Assembly: GCA_016211095.1 (NCBI GenBank)
Contig: JACQSW010000090.1
Span: 1 to 29,148, forward strand
Direction: 5' to 3'
Length of the DNA stretch: 29,148 bases
From: Candidatus Woesearchaeota archaeon
Lineage (GTDB): Archaea > Nanobdellota > Nanobdellia > SCGC-AAA011-G17 > GW2011-AR17
Made by a program: the position numbers and the translations under genes. The notes under the pieces are model-generated. The model did no database searches and was not told the origin of the DNA. It worked only from the letters and a program-made list of their open reading frames with translations. The first letter of the stretch is position 1. Each line of letters opens with the position of its first letter. This document shows, one piece after another, positions 1-12,199 of the stretch.

Positions 1-34
1 CTTATTAAGCATATACTTCTTATAGTTTTTAAAG

Positions 35-155
35 AGTGTTAGTGTGGGGCGACTTAGCGACTAATGCCTTCGGGCGTTATAGCAAATTTTCGGATTTGCT
101 CATTCAAACTTGGTCTTCGTATCGATTTTGAACTAAGCCTAGGCGCGCTAACACT
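35..155 (+). ncRNA. Unassigned structured RNA-like element (four-way junction, three UUCG-capped hairpins, long closing stem)
   Basis: Manual folding gives a closing stem 35-46/144-155 (12 bp, 2 G-U) and an inner stem 53-57/133-137. Hairpins are 62-79 (7 bp, cUUCGg), 81-100 (8 bp, UUCG) and 103-132 (11 bp with mismatches, UUCG in loop). Many G-U pairs fix the + orientation. Function and expression are unknown. Confidence 0.6.
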
Positions 156-177
156 TCAAAATTCTTGTAACAAAAAA

Positions 178-185
178 TTATTAAA
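178..185 (+). promoter_or_regulatory. Archaeal TATA box (TTATTAAA) with A-rich BRE; leaderless promoter of the P-type ATPase
   Basis: Lies 25 nt before ATG 211. The same spacing recurs at several other genes in the window. Confidence 0.55.
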
Positions 186-210
186 CCTGAAAAGGCAAAT
201 AACATAAACT

Positions 211-2805
211 ATGCGCGCTTTTAATGTTGGTGAAGTTCTAAAAGGATTAGAAACAGATAGTGGTGGGTTAAGCAGCGAAGAGGCAAAAGGTCGGCTAACG
301 AAATATGGTTTTAACGAGTTGCGTGGCGAAAAAAGGGTTTCTCCTCTAAAAATTTTTTTAAGCCAATTCAAAGACCCCCTTATTGTTATTCTTTTTGTAG
401 CAACGCTTGTGTCTGTTTATATAAATGAAGTTGCAGATGCTTTTATCATTGCTGCGATTATTGTTCTTAATGCTGTGGTCGGCTTTTTTCAAGAATTCAA
501 GGCAGAAAGGGCTTTTGAGTTGTTGAAAAAAATGAGTGTGCCGCACTGCATTGTCTTTAGGGATAGAAAAGAAGAGGTTATAGAATCAAGATTTTTAGTG
601 TCAGGCGATATAATCATTTTAGGGGCTGGTAATAAGGCGCCAGCTGATGCCCTGCTAATCGAATCGATGAGTTTAGAGGTTGACGAATCTGCTTTAACAG
701 GCGAATCTATCCCTGTCCAAAAGAGTATAGCCGAGGTAGACGAAGGTACCGCCTTGAGCGAAAGAAGCAACATGATTTTTTCTGGAACAACAATCACGCG
801 TGGCACGGGAAAAGCCGTTGTTGTTTCTACTGGTATGAATACTGAGTTTGGAAAAATAGCCAAGCTTGTGCAAACAATTGAAACAGCAACCACCCCTCTC
901 CAGAAAAAACTTCAAGGATTAGGCAAATGGCTAGGGGCAGTGATCCTGTTTATTTGTTTAATAATATTCGGCCTTGGTATCTTAACCGGTAAGTTTAATT
1001 TTTTTGAGCTATTCATGACTGTCTTAAGTTTAGCTGTTGCTGCTATACCTGAAGGATTGCCAGCAGTAGTGACTATTTGCTTGGCTTTAGGCTTGCGGAG
1101 GATGCTTAACCGTAAAGCTCTTATTCGAAGGCTAAAGGCTGTAGAAACTCTTGGAAGCATTACGGTCATCTGTACCGACAAGACTGGTACTCTGACAAAG
1201 AACGAAATGACTGCTATCCAATTATTTGTAAACAACCAGTACATAGATGTTAGCGGTTCAGGCTATGAAACTAGCGGCGAATTCAAAATCAACAACAAAG
1301 CAATCGATCCGAAACGAGTGAAGTTATTGCTGGAAATTGCAGCTTCTTGCAATGACTCAACATTAGAAATTGGTGACCCCACAGAGAGAGCGCTTGTTGT
1401 ATTGGCAAAGAAGGGGTTTGTTGAGAAGGATGAGGCAAGGATTGGTGGGATCCCCTTTGATTCAGACAAAAAGTATATGGCTACATTTCATAAGAATGGC
1501 TTGGCTTATTTTAAGGGTGCTCCAGAAAAAATCCTTGAAATGTGTGGTTACATACAAATAAACAGTTCTAAACGGCGAATAACTTCAAAAGAAAAAAGTG
1601 CAATCCTAAACGAGAGTGGGGAAATGGCTGCTTCTGCATTAAGGGTATTGGCTTGTGCGTATAGCCATGACAAGAAACTGCGAGACCTGACTTTTGTTGG
1701 TTTGGTTGGAATGATTGATCCACCAAGAGATGAAGCCCAAGAATCAATTGCGTTGTGTGAAAAAGCAGGAATAAGGGCAGTAATGATCACAGGGGATCAT
1801 TTGGTGACAGCGAAAGCGATAGCCAACAGAATTGGCTTAAAAGGCGATGCTATCAATGGAGACGAAATTGATAAGCTAAGCATGCCAGAGATGCAGGAAT
1901 TGGTAAAAAAAGTAACAATATTCGCGAGGGCGTCTTCAACGCATAAAGTCAGAATTCTTTCTGCCTTGCAAAAAAATGAAGAGATTGTGGCGATGACTGG
2001 GGATGGTATTAATGATGCGCCTGCACTAAAAAAAGCAAACGTCGGTGTGGCAATGAACATAAAAGGCACAGATGTTAGCCGGGAAGCTGCAGACATGACT
2101 CTTTTGGATGATAATTTTGCGACGATTGTTTCTGCAATAAGGGAGGGTCGCACAATTTATGACAATATCAAAAAGTTTGTCAAGTTCCTCTTAGCAGCTA
2201 ACCTTGGAGAAGTTTTACTTATCCTTATAGCGATAATTGTTAGCCTCCCTCTTCCGCTTCTGCCAATTCATATTCTTTGGATAAACCTTGTTACTGATAG
2301 TTTGCCTGCGCTTGCTTTAAGTGTGGAGAAGTCGGACCCAAAAATTATGGAGAGAAAGCCTCGGCCGGTTAATGAGAGCATATTCCATAATATAAAATTC
2401 TTTTTGATAGTTGCAGGCTTGTTAACAGCAATGAGCAGCTTAGCAGCGTTCTTGGTTTATTATTGGGATGGCGGGGATATTGTTAAAGCTCGGACGATTG
2501 CGCTCACAACAATAGTTGTATTTGAGTTGCTTCTTGTTTTTGCTTGCAGATCAAAAAAATTAACTTTGGTAGAGTTAGGCTTGTTTTCTAATAGGTATTT
2601 AGTTGGAGCAGTCGCTGTCTCATTCATTGCGCACCTCTTAATAATTTATACTCCGCTAAGCGCATTTTTCAAATTGGCCAGTCTAGGGTTGAATGATTGG
2701 CTGATAGTCTTAGCTTTCGGCGCTAGCGGCTTGTTATTTTTTGAAATAAAAAAGTTTTTCTTTCCAAACAAAGAATTAATTGTGCAGCCTTATGCACGTT
2801 TATAA
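211..2805 (+). CDS. P-type ATPase, P2A (Ca2+-transporting, SERCA/PacL-like), 864 aa
   Basis: Motifs [13 protein letters not shown] (M4), DKTGTLT (phospho-Asp), [29 protein letters not shown] and [14 protein letters not shown] (M6); about 10 hydrophobic segments. Confidence 0.96.
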
Positions 2806-4227
2806 AAAATTCTCCGGGTTTATCTTGCTTGTGATAAGCATTCTTTTAATGTTGTAGTCTATTAATAATTCCGTCTTTTTGTCATTATTCTTTTGCAACT
2901 CCCTCTCTAAATCTATTAAAGCTGAGAAGTCCAATTTTTTGTTAGTGTAAGCTTTTATCGTTGATATTCTGGTATTTTCTAAGTTGCTTATGTTCTCGTT
3001 TGTTGCTTTTATCCTGTTTTCTGCTTCCCTTAAGGCGCTGTATAAGTTTGTTATTTCAAGCTTTATGTTATTCTCTTCTTTTTGCATTTCCAAGGAGATG
3101 ATTATTTGGTCTGATTCTGATTTGGATTGCCTTGCTTCTGTATTTTTATCAAAAAATGGGAGGGGTATGTCTATACCTAATCCGAATTTGTACTCCTCTG
3201 TTTCTGGGTTGAATTTTCCTTCTAGGCCTATTTTTGCGTCACGAGTTGGACCTTTTTTGGCGGCTTTTGCTTCTTTTTGTATTGCTTGTTGGAATGCCCT
3301 TAATTTTTTTAGTTCGAGGCTGTTTTGTATTGAATTTTTGATGCAGTATTCTAAGTCTTGATTGAAAGGCAAATATTCTGGTGATGCAGTTATGCTAATT
3401 TCGGTGGTTAGTGCTAATCCTAAAAGGCTTTTGAGATTGTTAAGGATTCTTTCATAGTTGTTTTGCCTATTGTTAAGTGCGTCCTGCGCTGAGGATAGCT
3501 CTGTCGCTGCCCTCATCAAATCTGCCTCGAAGTTTGTTGTTTTTTTAATGATAGAATCATCTTCTTTTATGTTTAAGACGTAACTCTTTTGGTTGCCAAC
3601 GAAGGCGGTTATTTTTAGGACTTCGTAATAGTTTTGGGTTACAAATAGTTTAACGTCCCTAACGGCCTGTTCGTAGGTTATTTCTGCCGCTTCAAGCGTT
3701 GCATCTGCTATTGCCTGCTTTGCCTTTTCGTTAGCAGGAGTGGTGGATAGGTATGGGGTGGGGAAGCTAAATTTTAAGATTAGTTCGGGTTCAAATGTGC
3801 GAAATTGATTGTTTTCTGTAGAAGGTTTTTCTATTAATTCTTCTTTTCTTGTTTCCCGGATTATCCATTCGAGTTCCACTGCGTTTTTGAATTTTTGTTT
3901 TAGGTAGAGGTCTATGTTTGATTCTATTTTTGATTCTTCTTTGTCGTTATCGCCAGTTAAATCTTCTTTTCCTGTGTGGAGGTAGTTTGTTTTAAACCTT
4001 AACCCTACTTGTGGGGCATAATTTGCGTCGAACAAGTTTTTTTCTGCCTTAGCAAGGTTTAGCCTTTCGTTGGCTTGCTGTAATAACAAACTTTCGTGGA
4101 GAGCTAAGTCTAAGGTTGTTGTTTGATCTAATTTTAATGGTTGTGAGCCATTTGAGTAGGTTAATGTGGGGATTAGCAGAGAAGTTGTTGTTATAATTGC
4201 TGCAATTTTTTTAATTCGTTCCTTCAT
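2800..4227 (-). CDS. TolC/OEP-family outer-membrane efflux channel-like protein, 475 aa
   Basis: N-terminal signal-like peptide and two OEP-like repeats: LDLALHES...AKAEKNLFDANYAPQVGL; VKLFVTQNYYEVL; DLMRA...LKSLLGL; CIKNSIQNSLEL; GLGIDIPLPFFD; KAYTNKKLDFSALIDLEREL...DY. Confidence 0.8.
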   Translation of the reverse strand: MKERIKKIAAIITTTSLLIPTLTYSNGSQPLKLDQTTTLDLALHESLLLQQANERLNLAKAEKNLFDANYAPQVGLRFKTNYLHTGKEDLTGDNDKEESKIESNIDLYLKQKFKNAVELEWIIRETRKEELIEKPSTENNQFRTFEPELILKFSFPTPYLSTTPANEKAKQAIADATLEAAEITYEQAVRDVKLFVTQNYYEVLKITAFVGNQKSYVLNIKEDDSIIKKTTNFEADLMRAATELSSAQDALNNRQNNYERILNNLKSLLGLALTTEISITASPEYLPFNQDLEYCIKNSIQNSLELKKLRAFQQAIQKEAKAAKKGPTRDAKIGLEGKFNPETEEYKFGLGIDIPLPFFDKNTEARQSKSESDQIIISLEMQKEENNIKLEITNLYSALREAENRIKATNENISNLENTRISTIKAYTNKKLDFSALIDLERELQKNNDKKTELLIDYNIKRMLITSKINPENFL

Positions 4228-4252
4228 TTTTGTTAGTGGCGATTGTTTTTAG

Positions 4253-4260
4253 TTTATAAA
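4253..4260 (-). promoter_or_regulatory. TATA box (TTTATAAA) with AGAAAA BRE for the TolC-like gene
   Basis: Lies 25 nt upstream of ATG 4227 on the minus strand. Confidence 0.6.
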
Positions 4261-4350
4261 ATTTTCTATCGTGACTATAATTAAGTGGTGAAGATGCTTG
4301 GGGGTTGCTTATTTTATGACTCGCCACACAAAATTTCTTTCTTTTTTTGA

Positions 4351-4683
4351 TTACGCTTTGAACGATTTTTTTCTTCTATTTGTTACGTCATCTTTAAATT
4401 TGTGTTTGATGCAGTTCTCCAACTCCTCACAGACCTTATTAATCGTTCTAGCCAAGTCCCAATCAGCATTCGTGCTAGTAACTAAAACGTTAGGGGCTTG
4501 CAGCCTAAGGTGTATAGAAAATTTTGGAGTATTACCACTTTTCTTATATTTCTTTACAGTAACTATCAATTCGCCTTCTTCGAAATGCCTGCCTACTTTT
4601 TTACTAAAAGAGCCTAGGTGGTCTTGTAGTTTAGCAATCTCAAAGCTGTCAAGGCTGTTTGCGCCTATATAACTTATTTTCAT
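4351..4683 (-). CDS. HPF/RaiA (S30AE)-like ribosome hibernation factor, stand-alone, 110 aa
   Basis: The segment KFSIHLRLQAPNVLVTSTNADWDLARTINKVCEELENCIKHK parallels the HPF beta-beta-alpha pattern (ending DLYAAID...KLERQL.K). A GGAGG SD precedes the ATG. Confidence 0.7.
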   Translation of the reverse strand: MKISYIGANSLDSFEIAKLQDHLGSFSKKVGRHFEEGELIVTVKKYKKSGNTPKFSIHLRLQAPNVLVTSTNADWDLARTINKVCEELENCIKHKFKDDVTNRRKKSFKA

Positions 4684-4918
4684 AAAAATTCCTCCCCAAA
4701 TTTTTTTTATCTTTTTTATCGGAATAAAACTGTTAGGCTTTTAGCCTGCAAATGAATTCCAATGCATATTCTTTTAAAATTAGCATTTAAGTTTTTTTAA
4801 ACCTTTTGTATATGATTTAATAGATATTTTAAAGAACTATTGGCAAAGTTCAAAAATTTCCTCCTTAACATTTATATATCCCTCCTCTTTACTATTCTTA
4901 AACTTTGAAAGGGGGTGT

Positions 4919-6535
4919 TTGAGTATCGTTAATTATTCGAAAGATGAAAAAACTGTTTTGGAACATTTCTTCTCAAACATTGACAAAAATGTCTATTTTG
5001 TGAAAAATTTGCCTGAGGAAGTGTGGGCAACGCTCAAAGGCTCTTACAGCAGGGAACATCTTTCTATGCGTGACAACTTCTTAAAAAAGATGAAAGAAGG
5101 GGGAGCAGACATCAAAGCCTTGGCTGAAGCTATCCGCATAACAAAAGAAGGAACTTCGTTGCAGAGGATAAAATCAAAAATCACCAGAAAACCGGTTGAG
5201 CAGTTAAGCCTTGAATATCTAATAAGCAAGGCGGGAAAGTTTTTGGAGACATGGGCGGTCAAGTATGGGCATAACTCGCTGAAGGAGGGTGCAGTCGCCA
5301 AAATTGCAGTTGAAGACGTTTCAATAATCTTAACTAAAATTATCGAGGATAATAGGTTAGCTTCTTACATAGAAAAATCAACTCGGTATTTGGATTTTAC
5401 AAAGAGCAGCCTCTTCTATGATTCAACATTAATAAGCTCGCATCACTCAAGGAGAGTTGAGGATAATGGAAACATGCTGATGGAGACTTACACAGAAATA
5501 CTCGAAAAACTTACGCCATTTGTTATTAAAAAAAGAGATGCGCTTAAGCCAGAAAAAGAAAAAATGAAAGCGTGGGAGAATGCTTGTAGGGCCGAGGCAT
5601 TCGACTCAGCGAGGTACGTGCTACCCGCGTGTGTCAAAACAAGTTTGGGATGGACTGTGAACGCTAGGGAACTAGAGCACGCAATCACTAAACTTTTATC
5701 AAGCGAGCTTGAAGAGGCGAAAAAGATAGGGGCGCTGCTTAAGGATGAAGGGACAAAAATTTTTCCAACACTCATAAGGCATGCAAAAGAATCTGAATAC
5801 TTAAAAGAAACAAACAAATCAATGAATAATTTATCCAAAAATTTGTTAAAAGATGATCCAAAAGAAGCAAATTTTGTTTCATTAGTTCACTCCGATGAAG
5901 GCTTAGAAGACAAACTGGTGGCTGCAATACTTTACAAATACTCCCAACAACCTTACTCACAAATATTTAAGCAGGTAAAAATTTTTTCTGAAAAACAAAA
6001 AAACGAAGTTTTCGAAGAATATTTGAAAAGGCGCAGCAACCATGAAGCCATGCTTAGGGGGATGGAAGCGGGGGAATTTGTTTTCGACATCCTAATTGAT
6101 TTTGGAGCTTTCAGGGATATACAGCGGCATAGGATTGGAACGCAGATACCCCAAACATTAACCACCTTTCACGGCTACACAACGCCTGAGTTAATAGTTG
6201 AGGCAGGCTTGGAAAAAAAGTTTCGAACAGCAATGGAAGAATCTGCCAAGAACCACCAACTAGTCTACAAAGATTATCCTGAACAAGCTCAGTATATGGT
6301 TCCGTTAGCATTCAAAAAACGGGTTTACCTAAAGTTTAATCCGAGGCAAACAGCATATTTCATTGAACTCAGGTCAGGGGAGCAGGGCCACGTATCTTAC
6401 CGAAAGCTTGCAATAATGATGCATCAGATTATAGAAGAAAAATACCCAAACTTTGCTAAATTCATAAAAGTCAACAAGAACAATATTGATATGCCGAGAT
6501 TAAATGCGGAACTAAAAGCTTTGAACAAGAAATAA
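4919..6535 (+). CDS. thyX: FAD-dependent thymidylate synthase ThyX, tandem two-domain form, 538 aa
   Basis: EKSTRY (SxRY) and ARYVLP..T..G.T.NARELEH in domain 1; DIQRHR and YFIELRS in domain 2. TTG start with a GGGGG SD. Confidence 0.88.
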   Translation: MSIVNYSKDEKTVLEHFFSNIDKNVYFVKNLPEEVWATLKGSYSREHLSMRDNFLKKMKEGGADIKALAEAIRITKEGTSLQRIKSKITRKPVEQLSLEYLISKAGKFLETWAVKYGHNSLKEGAVAKIAVEDVSIILTKIIEDNRLASYIEKSTRYLDFTKSSLFYDSTLISSHHSRRVEDNGNMLMETYTEILEKLTPFVIKKRDALKPEKEKMKAWENACRAEAFDSARYVLPACVKTSLGWTVNARELEHAITKLLSSELEEAKKIGALLKDEGTKIFPTLIRHAKESEYLKETNKSMNNLSKNLLKDDPKEANFVSLVHSDEGLEDKLVAAILYKYSQQPYSQIFKQVKIFSEKQKNEVFEEYLKRRSNHEAMLRGMEAGEFVFDILIDFGAFRDIQRHRIGTQIPQTLTTFHGYTTPELIVEAGLEKKFRTAMEESAKNHQLVYKDYPEQAQYMVPLAFKKRVYLKFNPRQTAYFIELRSGEQGHVSYRKLAIMMHQIIEEKYPNFAKFIKVNKNNIDMPRLNAELKALNKK

Positions 6536-6552
6536 CGTCGTGTTAAAGCTTT

Positions 6553-6663
6553 TTACCTTTTCTTTTTTAAACAGGGTTCACACCTGAATTTAGGGATGTA
6601 GAGGTTTTCGCTTTCAAAAACTTCCAGCGGTTTTCCACAATCAAAACATTTGACTTTTTGCAT
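6553..6663 (-). CDS. 36-aa CxxCG/CxxC zinc-finger microprotein (absent from the ORF track)
   Basis: Manual translation: MQKVKCFDCGKPLEVFESENLYIPKFRCEPCLKKKR*. It has two Cys pairs and its own TATA (TTTATAAA, 6697-6704). Confidence 0.65.
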   Translation of the reverse strand: MQKVKCFDCGKPLEVFESENLYIPKFRCEPCLKKKR

Positions 6664-6696
6664 ATCGTCTCAATTTACAAAGAAAAAGCAGATTCT

Positions 6697-6704
6697 TTTA
6701 TAAA
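6697..6704 (-). promoter_or_regulatory. TATA box (TTTATAAA) upstream of the zinc-finger microprotein
   Basis: A-rich BRE plus TTTATAAA, 33 nt upstream of ATG 6663. Confidence 0.45.
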
Positions 6705-6723
6705 GTTTTTGGAAAAAAAATCT

Positions 6724-7320
6724 TTATCTGCTGGCATCCGCCTGCCTTTCAAGTTCTAGTTTTTTTGCTATCGCGTTTGATGCTTGATCGCAGTTATAAG
6801 CCTTCATTATTTCTTCAGCTAGGCATTCGGTGATACTCTTCTTGGTTTTGAATGATTTTGAGTAAGAACCCTGAATCATTATTCTTAAAGCTATGTCAAT
6901 CCTTCTTTGTGGGCTGCATTCCACTGCTTTAGGATACCTTGCTCCGCCGTATTCAATTGTGGTTATTTCTTCTCTAGGCGCAGCCATCTCTATTGCTTTA
7001 ATAAAAACTTCGATGGGGTTTTTCTTTGTTTTTTGTTCTATCATCTCAAAACATTGTTTTACTATTTTGCTCTTGTTCGCTGCTTTTCCTGGGCAGTGCC
7101 CTGAGCTTATCCTATGTTTTTTCCCTTTGTGACCTGGCACCATCAGTTTGTTGATTAGCCTCTCAACGATATGGTTTTTTGATTTCCAGAAGACCGTTTT
7201 GACATTTCTTCCGCCTGTTTTTGGGATAATTATTGGTTTGATATTTATGTATCTTTGTAAACCTGGGTCTTCAACTTTTATTTGTGAAGTGTCCCATTTG
7301 TTGAATAGTTTGATCATCAT
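6724..7320 (-). CDS. rps7: 30S ribosomal protein S7 (uS7)
   Basis: [29 protein letters not shown] and [20 protein letters not shown] overlap with the S12 stop. Confidence 0.97.
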
Positions 7321-7754
7321 CTTCTACCCTTTTCTATTTTTCCTCTCACCAATGCGTTTAGTGATTGGTCGTTGACTTTTATTACTTGCCACCTAACGGT
7401 TGGGATGTCGCCTTTTGCCCTCCCCATTTTTCCGCCTATGCATTCAATTAGGACTTCGTCGTGTTCATCGACAATTTTTATAGCGTTATTGCCTGGTACG
7501 AAGGCAGTAATCTTTTTGCCGTTTTTGATTAGTTGGCATCGTACACACTTTCTCATCGCTGAGTTGGGCTGTTTTGCTTCTAATTGTATTTTTTCTAGAA
7601 CGATAGCTTTGGCTTGAGAGCTGCCTTTAAGCGGGTCTGATTTTGCTTTGCGTTTCATAATCCGCTTTACGTAATATGGATCGCGCCATCTACCGCTGTC
7701 TCTCCTCTCTTTGAGTTTTTTTGCAGTGTTTAATCCTCGACTTTTTTTGCCCAT
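7317..7754 (-). CDS. rps12: 30S ribosomal protein S12 (uS12, archaeal type)
   Basis: [27 protein letters not shown] and [14 protein letters not shown]. Confidence 0.98.
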
Positions 7755-7780
7755 TTTTTAAAAGCTGAGATTTGTGGGTG

Positions 7781-7788
7781 TATTTAAA
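7781..7788 (-). promoter_or_regulatory. Internal TATA (TTTAAATA) with BRE (CGAAACG) for S12-S7
   Basis: Lies 26 nt upstream of ATG 7754, in the nusA-S12 gap. Confidence 0.55.
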
Positions 7789-7804
7789 CGTTTCGGAAGC
7801 TTTT

Positions 7805-8209
7805 TTAGACGATTTTTACATCGAGATTGAAGTATCTCTTCATTAAATCGTGGAGTTTTTTAAGGTTTTGTTTATCTCTCCCGAACAGCATACCCTTTTC
7901 TTTATTATTGTTAGTCTTGATAAGTGCAACGCCTTCCTTGATTTCCACTTCGGCAATTATGGGTTTAATAATCCTTTTAAGAAATTCAGACGAATCCGGG
8001 CTGAATTCTATTACCTTTATTGACTTTTTTAGTAAGTTGCCAACTTTTTTTACGTGTGAGCCATTCTTGCCTAACGCTTTTGCCATCTCTCCTGATTGGA
8101 CAACAAAAACAAGTTGGCTGTTCTCGATGAAGCAATCTTTTACTTTAGCTTTTGTTACGTTTTCAAAAAAATTGATGTAACCTATAGTTTCTGCAGAATA
8201 CTCTATCAT
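7805..8209 (-). CDS. nusA: Archaeal NusA (KH domains)
   Basis: FENVTKAKVKDC, ALGKNGSHVKK, IKVIEFS and KGMLFGRDKQNL; canonical position after L30e. Confidence 0.92.
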   Translation of the reverse strand: MIEYSAETIGYINFFENVTKAKVKDCFIENSQLVFVVQSGEMAKALGKNGSHVKKVGNLLKKSIKVIEFSPDSSEFLKRIIKPIIAEVEIKEGVALIKTNNNKEKGMLFGRDKQNLKKLHDLMKRYFNLDVKIV

Positions 8210-8214
8210 TTTTT

Positions 8215-12199
<3,985 letters not shown>

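What the first reader, a model, noticed from the sequence alone, without database searches (positions are those of the whole stretch)
2800..4227. Full-length TolC-family channel in an archaeal chromosome, with no pump or adaptor in the window
Seen: a signal-like peptide plus two OEP-like repeats. The gene has an archaeal TATA/BRE 25 nt before the ATG and the same codon-end bias as neighbouring archaeal minus-strand genes, which argues for a resident, ameliorated gene. Established: TolC spans the outer membrane and periplasm of diderm bacteria and works with an MFP adaptor plus an RND/ABC/MFS pump; most archaea have one membrane. No adaptor or such pump lies in these 29 kb. Inference: a double envelope in this lineage, or a repurposed conduit across the S-layer or into a host cell at a symbiont-host contact.
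Basis: partly seen in the sequence, partly recalled or inferred. Interest (0 to 1): 0.8.

Follow-up and report, generated by a model that had tools for sequence, protein, structure and literature searches.

The report
Orphan TolC-like channel gene in archaeon
A tiny groundwater archaeon (Woesearchaeota, DPANN) carries an intact, very diverged copy of the bacterial outer-membrane channel TolC, wired to a native archaeal promoter, yet no pump, adaptor or outer-membrane machinery was found in its genome, so what the channel does there is an open question.

Summary
ORF 2800-4227(-) encodes a 475-aa protein that matches Pfam OEP above threshold (75 bits, two repeats). Its AlphaFold model (pLDDT 86) superposes over its full length on CusC, VceC, TolC and OprM. 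The gene is resident in a Woesearchaeal chromosome:
- It lies between two native genes.
- Contigs from four groundwater samples bridge both junctions.
- Its codon use is typical of the genome.
- Its TATA box sits at -33, the genome-wide promoter position.

It is an orphan. No MFP, RND pump, MlaD, TamB, BamA or LptD was found in the 85%-complete genome. None of 40 relatives has an OEP or an MFP. The nearest of 1.84 billion representative proteins is 25% identical, and all seven best hits examined sit beside partner genes in bacteria.

The protein keeps amphipathic barrel strands. It has lost both tip-turn glycines, which from memory form the adaptor-docking site. It also carries about 42 extra residues in the first extracellular hairpin.

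My reading: an old bacterial acquisition kept as a partner-independent exported channel. The double-envelope idea has no support. The host-contact conduit idea is untested.

An earlier unchecked scan note (e1-3764932) reports a similar TolC-like gene in another Woesearchaeote. A word look-up found no look-alike of this protein among the scan's windows.

The parts
2800..4227 (-). Gene for a 475-aa TolC/OEP-family protein (P0001)
   Evidence: Open frame. Pfam OEP 75.4 bits, two repeats. AlphaFold2 pLDDT 86, pTM 0.80. Foldseek hits to CusC, VceC, TolC, OprM with TM 0.6-0.76.
4150..4227 (-). Codons 1-26: probable Sec signal peptide (MKERIKK, hydrophobic core, TYS/N), no lipobox Cys
   Evidence: Read from the translation. 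No signal-peptide predictor was available. SecD and SecF genes are present in the genome.
4253..4267 (-). Archaeal TATA box TTTATAAA (4253-4260) with a purine-rich BRE-like stretch upstream; implies a leaderless or near-leaderless transcript
   Evidence: Sequence. The TATA starts at -33, inside the genome-wide positional peak at -36..-30.
3979..4011 (-). Barrel strand S1 (residues 73-83); one face is VLFTY
   Evidence: DSSP of the model; alternating hydrophobic pattern.
3799..3978 (-). Residues 84-143: enlarged first extracellular hairpin or loop. The P72-T157 span is 86 residues against a family median of 44. It is modelled with low confidence and has one extra amphipathic strand.
   Evidence: pLDDT 42-58 in this stretch; length comparison across 90 homologues.
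3760..3798 (-). Barrel strand S2 (residues 144-156); one face is FPLLFF
3169..3234 (-). Second barrel hairpin S4-S5 (residues 332-353); faces ILGF and YFLI
3538..3540 (-). Residue 230, tip turn between the long helices of repeat 1: Thr where 90% or more of homologues have Gly
   Evidence: Alignment A1.
2938..2940 (-). Residue 430, tip turn of repeat 2: Lys where 90% or more of homologues have Gly
   Evidence: Alignment A1.
2798..2813 (+). Copy 1 of a 16-nt direct repeat (GTTTATAAAANNTTCT). It covers the stop codons of the OEP gene and of the convergent ATPase gene.
   Evidence: only two matches in 29 kb, 0.06 expected by chance. The pattern was chosen after seeing the data.
4252..4267 (+). Copy 2 of the direct repeat; it contains the OEP gene's TATA box. 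The two copies bracket the gene (spacing 1454 nt).
211..2805 (+). Native flank: P-type cation ATPase, convergent with the OEP gene; the two ORFs overlap by 6 bp at their 3' ends
   Evidence: Pfam. Homologues in 41 of 41 genomes searched (own genome included), mostly 42-54% identical.
4351..4683 (-). Native flank: 110-aa gene with a weak S30AE/HPF-like match, same strand as the OEP gene, with its own GGAGG
   Evidence: In 7 of 11 relatives its homologue lies next to the ATPase with no OEP between them.

Best explanation
This is a genuine gene of a Woesearchaeal (DPANN) chromosome, acquired once from a diderm bacterium on the branch leading to this genome.

Shown:
- It was inserted between a small S30AE-like gene and a P-type ATPase that are neighbours in related genomes.
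- It has since drifted far from every sampled TolC-family protein while keeping the whole fold.
- It has a native promoter geometry and native codon use.
- No partner genes were found.

Inferred mechanism: the protein is made from a leaderless transcript, exported by Sec and cleaved. It assembles, like its relatives, into a trimer with a 12-stranded lipid-embedded beta-barrel and a long alpha-helical tunnel. It then works without the canonical adaptor and pump.

Two features support partner-independence. The lipid-facing stripes of the barrel strands are kept. The two tip-turn glycines, which from memory are where adaptors dock, are gone. The lipid-facing stripes imply a lipid membrane that is not a classical outer membrane of this cell, for example a partner cell's membrane or shed vesicles. 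The gene's residency and family assignment are far better supported (about 0.85) than this functional step (about 0.3).
For: Family and fold:
- Pfam OEP 75 bits, two repeats.
- Model pLDDT 86, pTM 0.80.
- Foldseek hits only TolC-family channels at E 1e-13 to 1e-9, TM 0.6-0.76.

Residency:
- The ATPase whose ORF overlaps the OEP ORF by 6 bp has homologues in all 41 genomes searched.
- The small gene on the other side is the ATPase's neighbour in 7 of 11 relatives.
- Contigs from four groundwater samples, 100% identical, bridge 2643-3027, 4179-4537, 4103-4391 and 4108-4506 at even depth.
- Codon fit is at the 78th percentile.
- The TATA box is at -33, in the genome-wide peak.

Single-lineage acquisition:
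- 0 of 40 relatives have an OEP.
- Other OEP-like genes in the phylum share no detectable similarity with it (under 8 bits).

Long divergence:
- The best of 1.84 billion representatives is 25% identical, 66 bits.
- It keeps only 2 of the 9 columns conserved at 90% or more, the lowest of 91 sequences.
- It has only 11 Gly and 8 Val.

Orphan status: no HlyD_D23, HlyD_3, RND, MlaD, Omp85 or LptD. The weak RND match is SecDF. Local phmmer/hmmsearch with MFP, MlaD, MlaE, TamB and BamA taken from the best hits' loci found nothing. 0 of 40 relatives have an MFP.

Barrel kept: the strands show clean alternating hydrophobic faces.
Against: - The genome is 85% complete in 152 contigs, so a partner could be unassembled.
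- The trimer could not be tested: the full-length trimer exceeds the tool's size limit, and a truncated trimer job gave no verdict.
- No expression data: no RNA run holds the locus.
- No close homologues exist, so purifying selection cannot be measured.
- Loss of near-invariant residues could equally mean relaxed constraint.
- The gene is a singleton in one MAG.
- A beta-barrel with no BamA and no outer membrane has no demonstrated place to insert.
Confidence: 0.5

Rival explanations
1. Canonical or near-canonical duct. The channel docks onto an inner-membrane transporter through a partner that was missed. The partner could be in the unassembled ~15% of the genome. Or it could be a non-canonical adaptor such as the C-terminally anchored NEW3/CARDB-like proteins or the coiled-coil two-TM protein encoded beside the MacB-type ABC permeases on contigs C78 and C144.
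For: Three MacB_PCD/FtsX permeases and an ABC ATPase exist in the genome. Their operons encode exported, C-terminally anchored Ig-like proteins and a coiled-coil membrane protein with no Pfam match. Three of the seven best bacterial hits sit in OEP-MFP-MacB operons. An earlier scan note (e1-3115466, unchecked) proposed NEW3-domain adaptors for a TolC-like protein elsewhere.
Against: From my own knowledge, MacB plus S-layer-domain operons of this kind are common in archaea that have no OEP. The OEP gene is unlinked to these operons. The tip glycines are lost. No MFP was found in the genome or in 40 relatives. The barrel would still need a second lipid membrane.
Confidence: 0.2
2. Functionless passenger: a transferred bacterial gene that is still intact but no longer does anything and is drifting towards loss.
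For: Partners are absent. It is found in one genome only among 41. It has the lowest retention of family-invariant residues among 91 sequences. There is no expression evidence.
Against: The frame is intact for 475 codons in a 0.93-Mb reduced genome. The long helices are modelled at pLDDT 93-98 and the dyad pattern of all four barrel strands is preserved. The TATA box is correctly placed. Codon use is fully native, which implies long residence without decay.
Confidence: 0.2
3. This lineage has a true outer membrane (a diderm archaeon) and the protein is its outer-membrane channel.
For: The barrel strands keep a lipid-facing surface. A few archaea such as Ignicoccus do have two membranes (PMC7613921, PMC6349945).
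Against: No Omp85/BamA, LptD, TamB or MFP was found. The gene was found in none of the 40 genomes of the same family or order that were searched, so it cannot mark a shared cell plan.
Confidence: 0.05
4. Assembly chimera or bacterial contamination of the bin.
For: It is a MAG of 152 contigs. Another MAG of the phylum (G346) carries AcrB plus OEP on a 3.1-kb, 51%-GC contig that looks like contamination.
Against: Both flanks within 125 bp are lineage-typical genes. The ATPase and OEP ORFs overlap at their 3' ends. Per-sample contigs bridge both junctions at matching depth. Codon use and promoter are native. The protein resembles no sampled bacterial protein above 25% identity.
Confidence: 0.03

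Closest known systems
TolC / outer membrane factor family (Pfam PF02321 OEP; structures 1EK9 TolC, 3PIK CusC, 1YC9 VceC, 1WP1 OprM)
   Same: Two tandem OEP repeats, the same order of helices and strands, a full-length structural match (TM 0.6-0.76), a cleavable-looking signal peptide and amphipathic barrel strands.
   Different: The host is archaeal. No MFP, pump or BamA was found. Both tip-turn glycines, R303 (RPEL motif), P331 and G470 are replaced. The first extracellular hairpin is about 42 residues longer than the family median. It fits no NCBIfam TolC subfamily (TIGR01844 29.9 bits against a cut-off of 225).
OEPs encoded in MlaE-MlaF-MlaD-OEP(-TamB-BamA) clusters of uncultured bacteria. 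From my own knowledge, this gene order and the neighbouring SpoIVB-type peptidase (Peptidase_S55) suggest diderm Firmicutes; one further top hit belongs to a cluster named 'TolC family protein [Selenomonas sp.]'.
   Same: These are among the best sequence hits (P0006, P0007, P0009; 22-26% identity, 64-65 bits).
   Different: Those genes lie directly after an MlaD with a helical-needle region. This genome has no MlaD, MlaE or TamB.
MacAB-TolC type operons (OEP-MFP-ABC-MacB)
   Same: Three other top hits (P0011, P0012, P0013) have this layout. MacB-type permeases exist in this genome.
   Different: There is no MFP here, and the OEP gene is unlinked to the MacB genes.
Other OEP-like genes in DPANN MAGs (G359: HlyD-type MFP plus OEP beside a PelF-like glycosyltransferase; G086: orphan OEP; earlier scan note e1-3764932)
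   Same: Sporadic TolC-family genes occur in small archaeal genomes of the same phylum (8 of 401 genomes over the Pfam cut-off, this one included).
   Different: They share no detectable pairwise similarity with this protein, so they are separate acquisitions or extremely diverged. G359 has an adjacent MFP; this genome does not.

Membership tests
TolC / OEP (PF02321) outer membrane factor | Sequence match to the family profile above the curated threshold, in two tandem repeats | tested here: met
   75.4 bits against a cut-off of 22, two stretches. The first repeat is weak (17.9 bits).
TolC / OEP (PF02321) outer membrane factor | Protomer fold: four barrel strands plus long coiled helices and an equatorial domain | tested here: met
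   AlphaFold2 pLDDT 86. The top 39 Foldseek PDB hits are all TolC-family channels, TM 0.53-0.76.
TolC / OEP (PF02321) outer membrane factor | Amphipathic, lipid-facing beta strands | tested here: met
   Alternating hydrophobic faces VLFTY, FPLLFF, ILGF and YFLI.
TolC / OEP (PF02321) outer membrane factor | Homotrimer forming one barrel | tested here: inconclusive
Three copies of residues 144-475 gave no verdict.
TolC / OEP (PF02321) outer membrane factor | Conserved glycines at the two periplasmic tip turns (adaptor docking site, from my own knowledge of TolC-AcrA/MacA tip-to-tip contacts) | tested here: not met
   T230 and K430 stand where 90% or more of 90 homologues have Gly.
Tripartite efflux / type I secretion system | Membrane fusion protein (HlyD/AcrA/MacA type) in the genome | tested here: not met
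   No HlyD_D23 or HlyD_3. An HMM built from 7 MFPs finds only a lipoyl domain of an E2 enzyme. The genome is 85% complete. 0 of 40 relatives have one.
Tripartite efflux / type I secretion system | Inner-membrane RND, ABC (MacB/HlyB) or MFS pump linked to the channel | tested here: inconclusive
   No RND pump; the weak hit is SecDF. Three MacB-type permeases exist but are unlinked and lack an MFP. MFS pumps and HlyB-type exporters were not searched.
Diderm envelope | Outer-membrane biogenesis genes (BamA/Omp85, LptD, TamB) | tested here: not met
   None found, within the limit of 85% completeness.
Mla-associated OEP | Adjacent MlaE, MlaF and MlaD genes | tested here: not met
   No MlaD or MlaE in the genome.

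The most novel reading that the evidence does not exclude
A DPANN archaeon has domesticated a bacterial TolC as a stand-alone, secreted channel. The channel inserts its beta-barrel into another cell's membrane (a host's, possibly a diderm bacterium's or a double-membraned archaeon's). Its roughly 10-nm helical tunnel then serves as a bridge for taking up metabolites or lipids at the symbiont-host contact. The enlarged surface hairpin and the remodelled tunnel tip would be adaptations to that role.
Probability: 0.1. Interest if true: 0.85.

Novelty: new variant of a known kind. Interest (0 to 1): 0.42.

Why it matters
TolC-family channels are understood only as the outer-membrane third of bacterial tripartite machines. 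An intact, long-resident copy in an archaeon raises two possibilities. The fold may be able to work alone in a new setting, which bears on how DPANN symbionts exchange material with partner cells. Or reduced genomes may be able to carry a useless 1.4-kb gene for a long time. Either answer is informative, and the protein can be tested by expression, bilayer recording and structure determination. It also warns that 'OEP present' in a MAG should not be read as evidence for a diderm envelope. The weight of the finding is limited: one gene in one medium-quality MAG, and sporadic OEP genes occur in roughly 1-2% of sampled genomes of this phylum.

Tried and rejected
- Word-indexed search of 5.8 billion proteins found only the query itself.
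- Trimer prediction with three copies of residues 144-475 gave no verdict; the full-length trimer is over the size limit.
- Other OEP-like ORFs of the phylum were compared as possible relatives and showed no usable similarity. One of them (G263) is an MFP whose hairpin cross-hits OEP, not a channel.
- The weak ACR_tran match on C135 is SecD/SecF.
- The marginal MFP-HMM hit on C25 is the lipoyl domain of a 2-oxoacid dehydrogenase E2.
- PF25917 is not in the genome-search library.
- Rfam finds no RNA element at the locus.
- The sigma-70 promoter and terminator scan is at background level.
- Literature searches for TolC in archaea or DPANN found no paper on an archaeal TolC.
- No donor could be named: the best hits are unnamed metagenomic proteins at 25% identity or less, and I built no tree because it would be unresolved at this divergence.
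Full report
**What is there**

The minus-strand ORF 2800-4227 is open for 475 codons. It matches Pfam OEP (PF02321) at 75.4 bits against a cut-off of 22, in two stretches. The C-terminal repeat is strong and the N-terminal repeat weak (61.5 and 17.9 bits in the six-frame search). It fits no curated TolC subfamily: NCBIfam TIGR01844 scores 29.9 bits against a cut-off of 225.

I built an AlphaFold2 model on an alignment of 90 distant homologues. It has mean pLDDT 86 and pTM 0.80. It shows the TolC protomer order:
- helices 35-68
- strand 73-83
- strand 144-156
- long helices 165-230 and 234-268
- an equatorial segment
- helix 304-325
- hairpin 332-340 / 345-353
- long helices 361-428 and 434-469

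Foldseek against the PDB returns only TolC-family channels at the top (CusC, VceC, SilC, OprN, TolC, OprM, CmeC, MtrE). E-values run from 1e-13 to 1e-9 and TM-scores from 0.6 to 0.76 over about 455-475 aligned columns.

**Is it really an archaeal, resident gene?**

The window is the longest contig (C64) of a MAG of 0.93 Mb in 152 contigs, 85% complete and 1.3% contaminated. It carries the split rpoB (with an intein), rpoA', rpoA'', NusA-KH, S12 and S7. RpoA'' is 58-68% identical to proteins named Woesearchaeota or Nanoarchaeota. The DNA comes from groundwater metagenomes.

Several lines place the gene in this chromosome:
- **Left flank.** The convergent P-type ATPase ORF overlaps the OEP ORF by 6 bp at their 3' ends (211-2805 against 2800-4227). 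The ATPase has homologues in all 41 genomes searched, mostly 42-54% identical.
- **Right flank.** The 110-aa S30AE-like gene lies 123 nt from the OEP start. In 7 of 11 relatives examined its homologue lies next to that same ATPase, upstream and on the same strand. Here the OEP gene sits between the two and the ATPase is inverted.
- **Independent contigs.** Per-sample contigs from four samples of one study match at 100% and bridge both junctions (2643-3027, 4179-4537, 4103-4391, 4108-4506). Depth is similar on the gene and its flanks. One of these samples may be the source of the MAG.
- **Codon use.** Synonymous codon fit is at the 78th percentile of 527 long ORFs of the genome, and GC3 is at the 24th percentile.
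- **Promoter.** TTTATAAA begins 33 nt before the ATG. Across the genome, TATA-like hexamers pile up at exactly -36 to -30: 23% of 504 long ORFs, against 4-5% at control offsets. This is the signature of leaderless archaeal transcripts.

A chimera or contaminant is very unlikely.

**How it got there**

None of 40 genomes of the same family or order has an OEP. In an even sample of 400 genomes of the phylum, ten others gave a match and seven of these passed the Pfam cut-off. Those I inspected are heterogeneous:
- G359 has a divergent HlyD-type MFP next to an OEP, beside a PelF-like glycosyltransferase.
- G086 has an orphan OEP.
- G263 is an MFP-MacB operon with no channel.
- G346 has AcrB plus OEP on a 3.1-kb, 51%-GC contig that looks like contamination.

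None shows usable similarity to this protein (under 8 bits). This gene is therefore a separate, single-lineage acquisition.

A 16-nt direct repeat, GTTTATAAAANNTTCT, occurs only twice in the 29 kb. One copy covers the two stop codons (2798-2813). The other contains the TATA box (4252-4267). Together they bracket the gene, and 0.06 matches are expected by chance. The pattern was chosen after seeing the data, so this is only a hint. It could be a footprint of insertion, and it could mean the promoter arose from duplicated native sequence.

**How far it has drifted**

An exhaustive HMMER scan of 1.84 billion representative proteins gives a best hit of 66 bits and 25% identity. Only 13 hits fall below E 1e-10.

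I looked up the genomic context of seven of the best hits. All are bacterial and all have partner genes adjacent:
- three in MlaE-MlaF-MlaD-OEP(-TamB-BamA) clusters
- three in OEP-MFP-ABC-MacB operons
- one in an MFP-OEP pair

In the alignment, this protein keeps only 2 of the 9 columns conserved at 90% or more, the lowest of 91 sequences. At columns conserved at 70% or more it keeps 52%, against a mean of 80%. The replaced residues include:
- the glycines at both turns between the long helices (T230, K430)
- R303 of the RPEL motif
- P331
- G470

From my own knowledge, the tip turns are where AcrA/MacA-type adaptors dock. I did not test that here.

The protein is poor in Gly (11) and Val (8) and rich in K, N, E, I and L. 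That fits long residence in a 39%-GC genome. The first barrel hairpin spans 86 residues against a family median of 44 (4 of 90 homologues are as long). The second is the shortest in the set. The extra stretch (84-143) is modelled with low confidence.

The four core strands have clean alternating hydrophobic faces: VLFTY, FPLLFF, ILGF and YFLI. A lipid-facing barrel surface has therefore been kept.

**Partners**

Nothing was found in the assembled 927 kb for the following:
- HlyD_D23 or HlyD_3
- RND pumps; the one weak ACR_tran hit is SecD/SecF
- MlaD
- Omp85/BamA
- LptD

Local phmmer and hmmsearch runs used MFP, MlaD, MlaE, TamB and BamA sequences taken from the best hits' own loci. They found only a lipoyl domain of an E2 enzyme. 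None of 40 relatives has an MFP either.

The genome does encode three MacB-type permeases and an ABC ATPase on C78 and C144. They sit with exported, C-terminally anchored Ig-like (NEW3-type) proteins and a coiled-coil two-TM protein with no Pfam match. From my own knowledge such operons are common in archaea without any OEP. They remain the only conceivable non-canonical partners.

All absences carry the caveat of 85% completeness.

**Interpretation**

Well supported (about 0.85): a bacterial outer-membrane-factor gene was acquired once, is resident and natively expressed-looking, and is now an orphan.

Inferred only (about 0.3): it still works, as an exported trimeric channel independent of adaptor and pump. 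If so, its barrel must sit in some lipid membrane other than a classical outer membrane of this cell.

Ranking of the alternatives:
- Missed or non-canonical partner: about 0.2.
- Functionless but intact passenger: about 0.2.
- True outer membrane in this lineage: about 0.05. It has no support, because the biogenesis genes are missing and the gene was not found in any relative searched.
- Chimera: about 0.03.

The trimer test gave no verdict and is not evidence either way. I found no paper describing an archaeal TolC. Reviews confirm that double membranes are rare exceptions in archaea and that gene transfer involving DPANN is common (PMC7613921, PMC6349945).

An earlier unchecked scan note (e1-3764932) reports a comparable diverged TolC-like gene in another Woesearchaeote. 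A word look-up with this protein found no look-alike among the scan's windows. The phenomenon therefore recurs, but not through one shared gene.

**Verdict**

This is a real and mildly surprising feature: a strongly diverged, partner-less TolC-family gene domesticated in a DPANN archaeon. It is a new variant of a known kind. Interest is moderate (0.42), because the evidence is one gene in one incomplete MAG and its function is untested.

Noticed in passing
window 2798-2813 and 4252-4267: A 16-nt direct repeat GTTTATAAAANNTTCT brackets the OEP gene exactly. It has only two matches in 29 kb, with 0.06 expected by chance. One copy holds the two stop codons and the other holds the TATA box. It may be an insertion footprint, but the pattern was chosen after seeing the data.
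   Followed up: partly
window 211-4683 versus loci L041-L044, L046, L048, L050: In 7 of 11 relatives the S30AE-like small gene lies upstream of the P-type ATPase on the same strand. Here the ATPase is inverted and the OEP gene lies between them.
   Followed up: partly
window 211-2805: The native P-type ATPase has the poorer codon fit: 1.7th percentile of 527 ORFs, against the 78th for the OEP gene. Codon fit alone is therefore a weak marker of foreignness in this genome.
   Followed up: no
L009 (own genome C78) 27-4593 and L008 (C144) 4481-8212: MacB-type ABC operons carry exported, C-terminally anchored Ig-like (NEW3/NPCBM_assoc-type) proteins. C78 also encodes a 423-aa coiled-coil protein with TM segments at both ends and no Pfam match. 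These are possible non-canonical envelope-spanning partners.
   Followed up: partly
L051 (G359:C4) 6443-10335: Another small genome of the same class (0.7 Mb, 9 contigs, 28% GC) has a HlyD-type MFP divergently adjacent to a 438-aa OEP. A DUF3492/GT1 (PelF-like) glycosyltransferase and sugar-modifying genes follow. This may be a polysaccharide export set in a DPANN genome.
   Followed up: partly
L055 (G346:C18) 1-3100: A 3.1-kb, 51%-GC contig in a 0.8-Mb Nanoarchaeota MAG carries AcrB plus a canonical OEP (91 and 88 bits). It looks like bacterial contamination of that bin.
   Followed up: no
L022, L024, L059 (best bacterial hits): The closest OEPs lie in MlaE-MlaF-MlaD-OEP-TamB(-BamA) clusters. 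Their MlaD carries weak 'Helical_needle' and Aq_493_lipo matches, which suggests an MCE needle docking into a TolC-like channel.
   Followed up: no
window 4919-6535: The ThyX ORF is 538 aa with two Thy1 stretches, about twice the usual length. Relatives have matching open frames of 316-623 aa.
   Followed up: no
   Followed up: no
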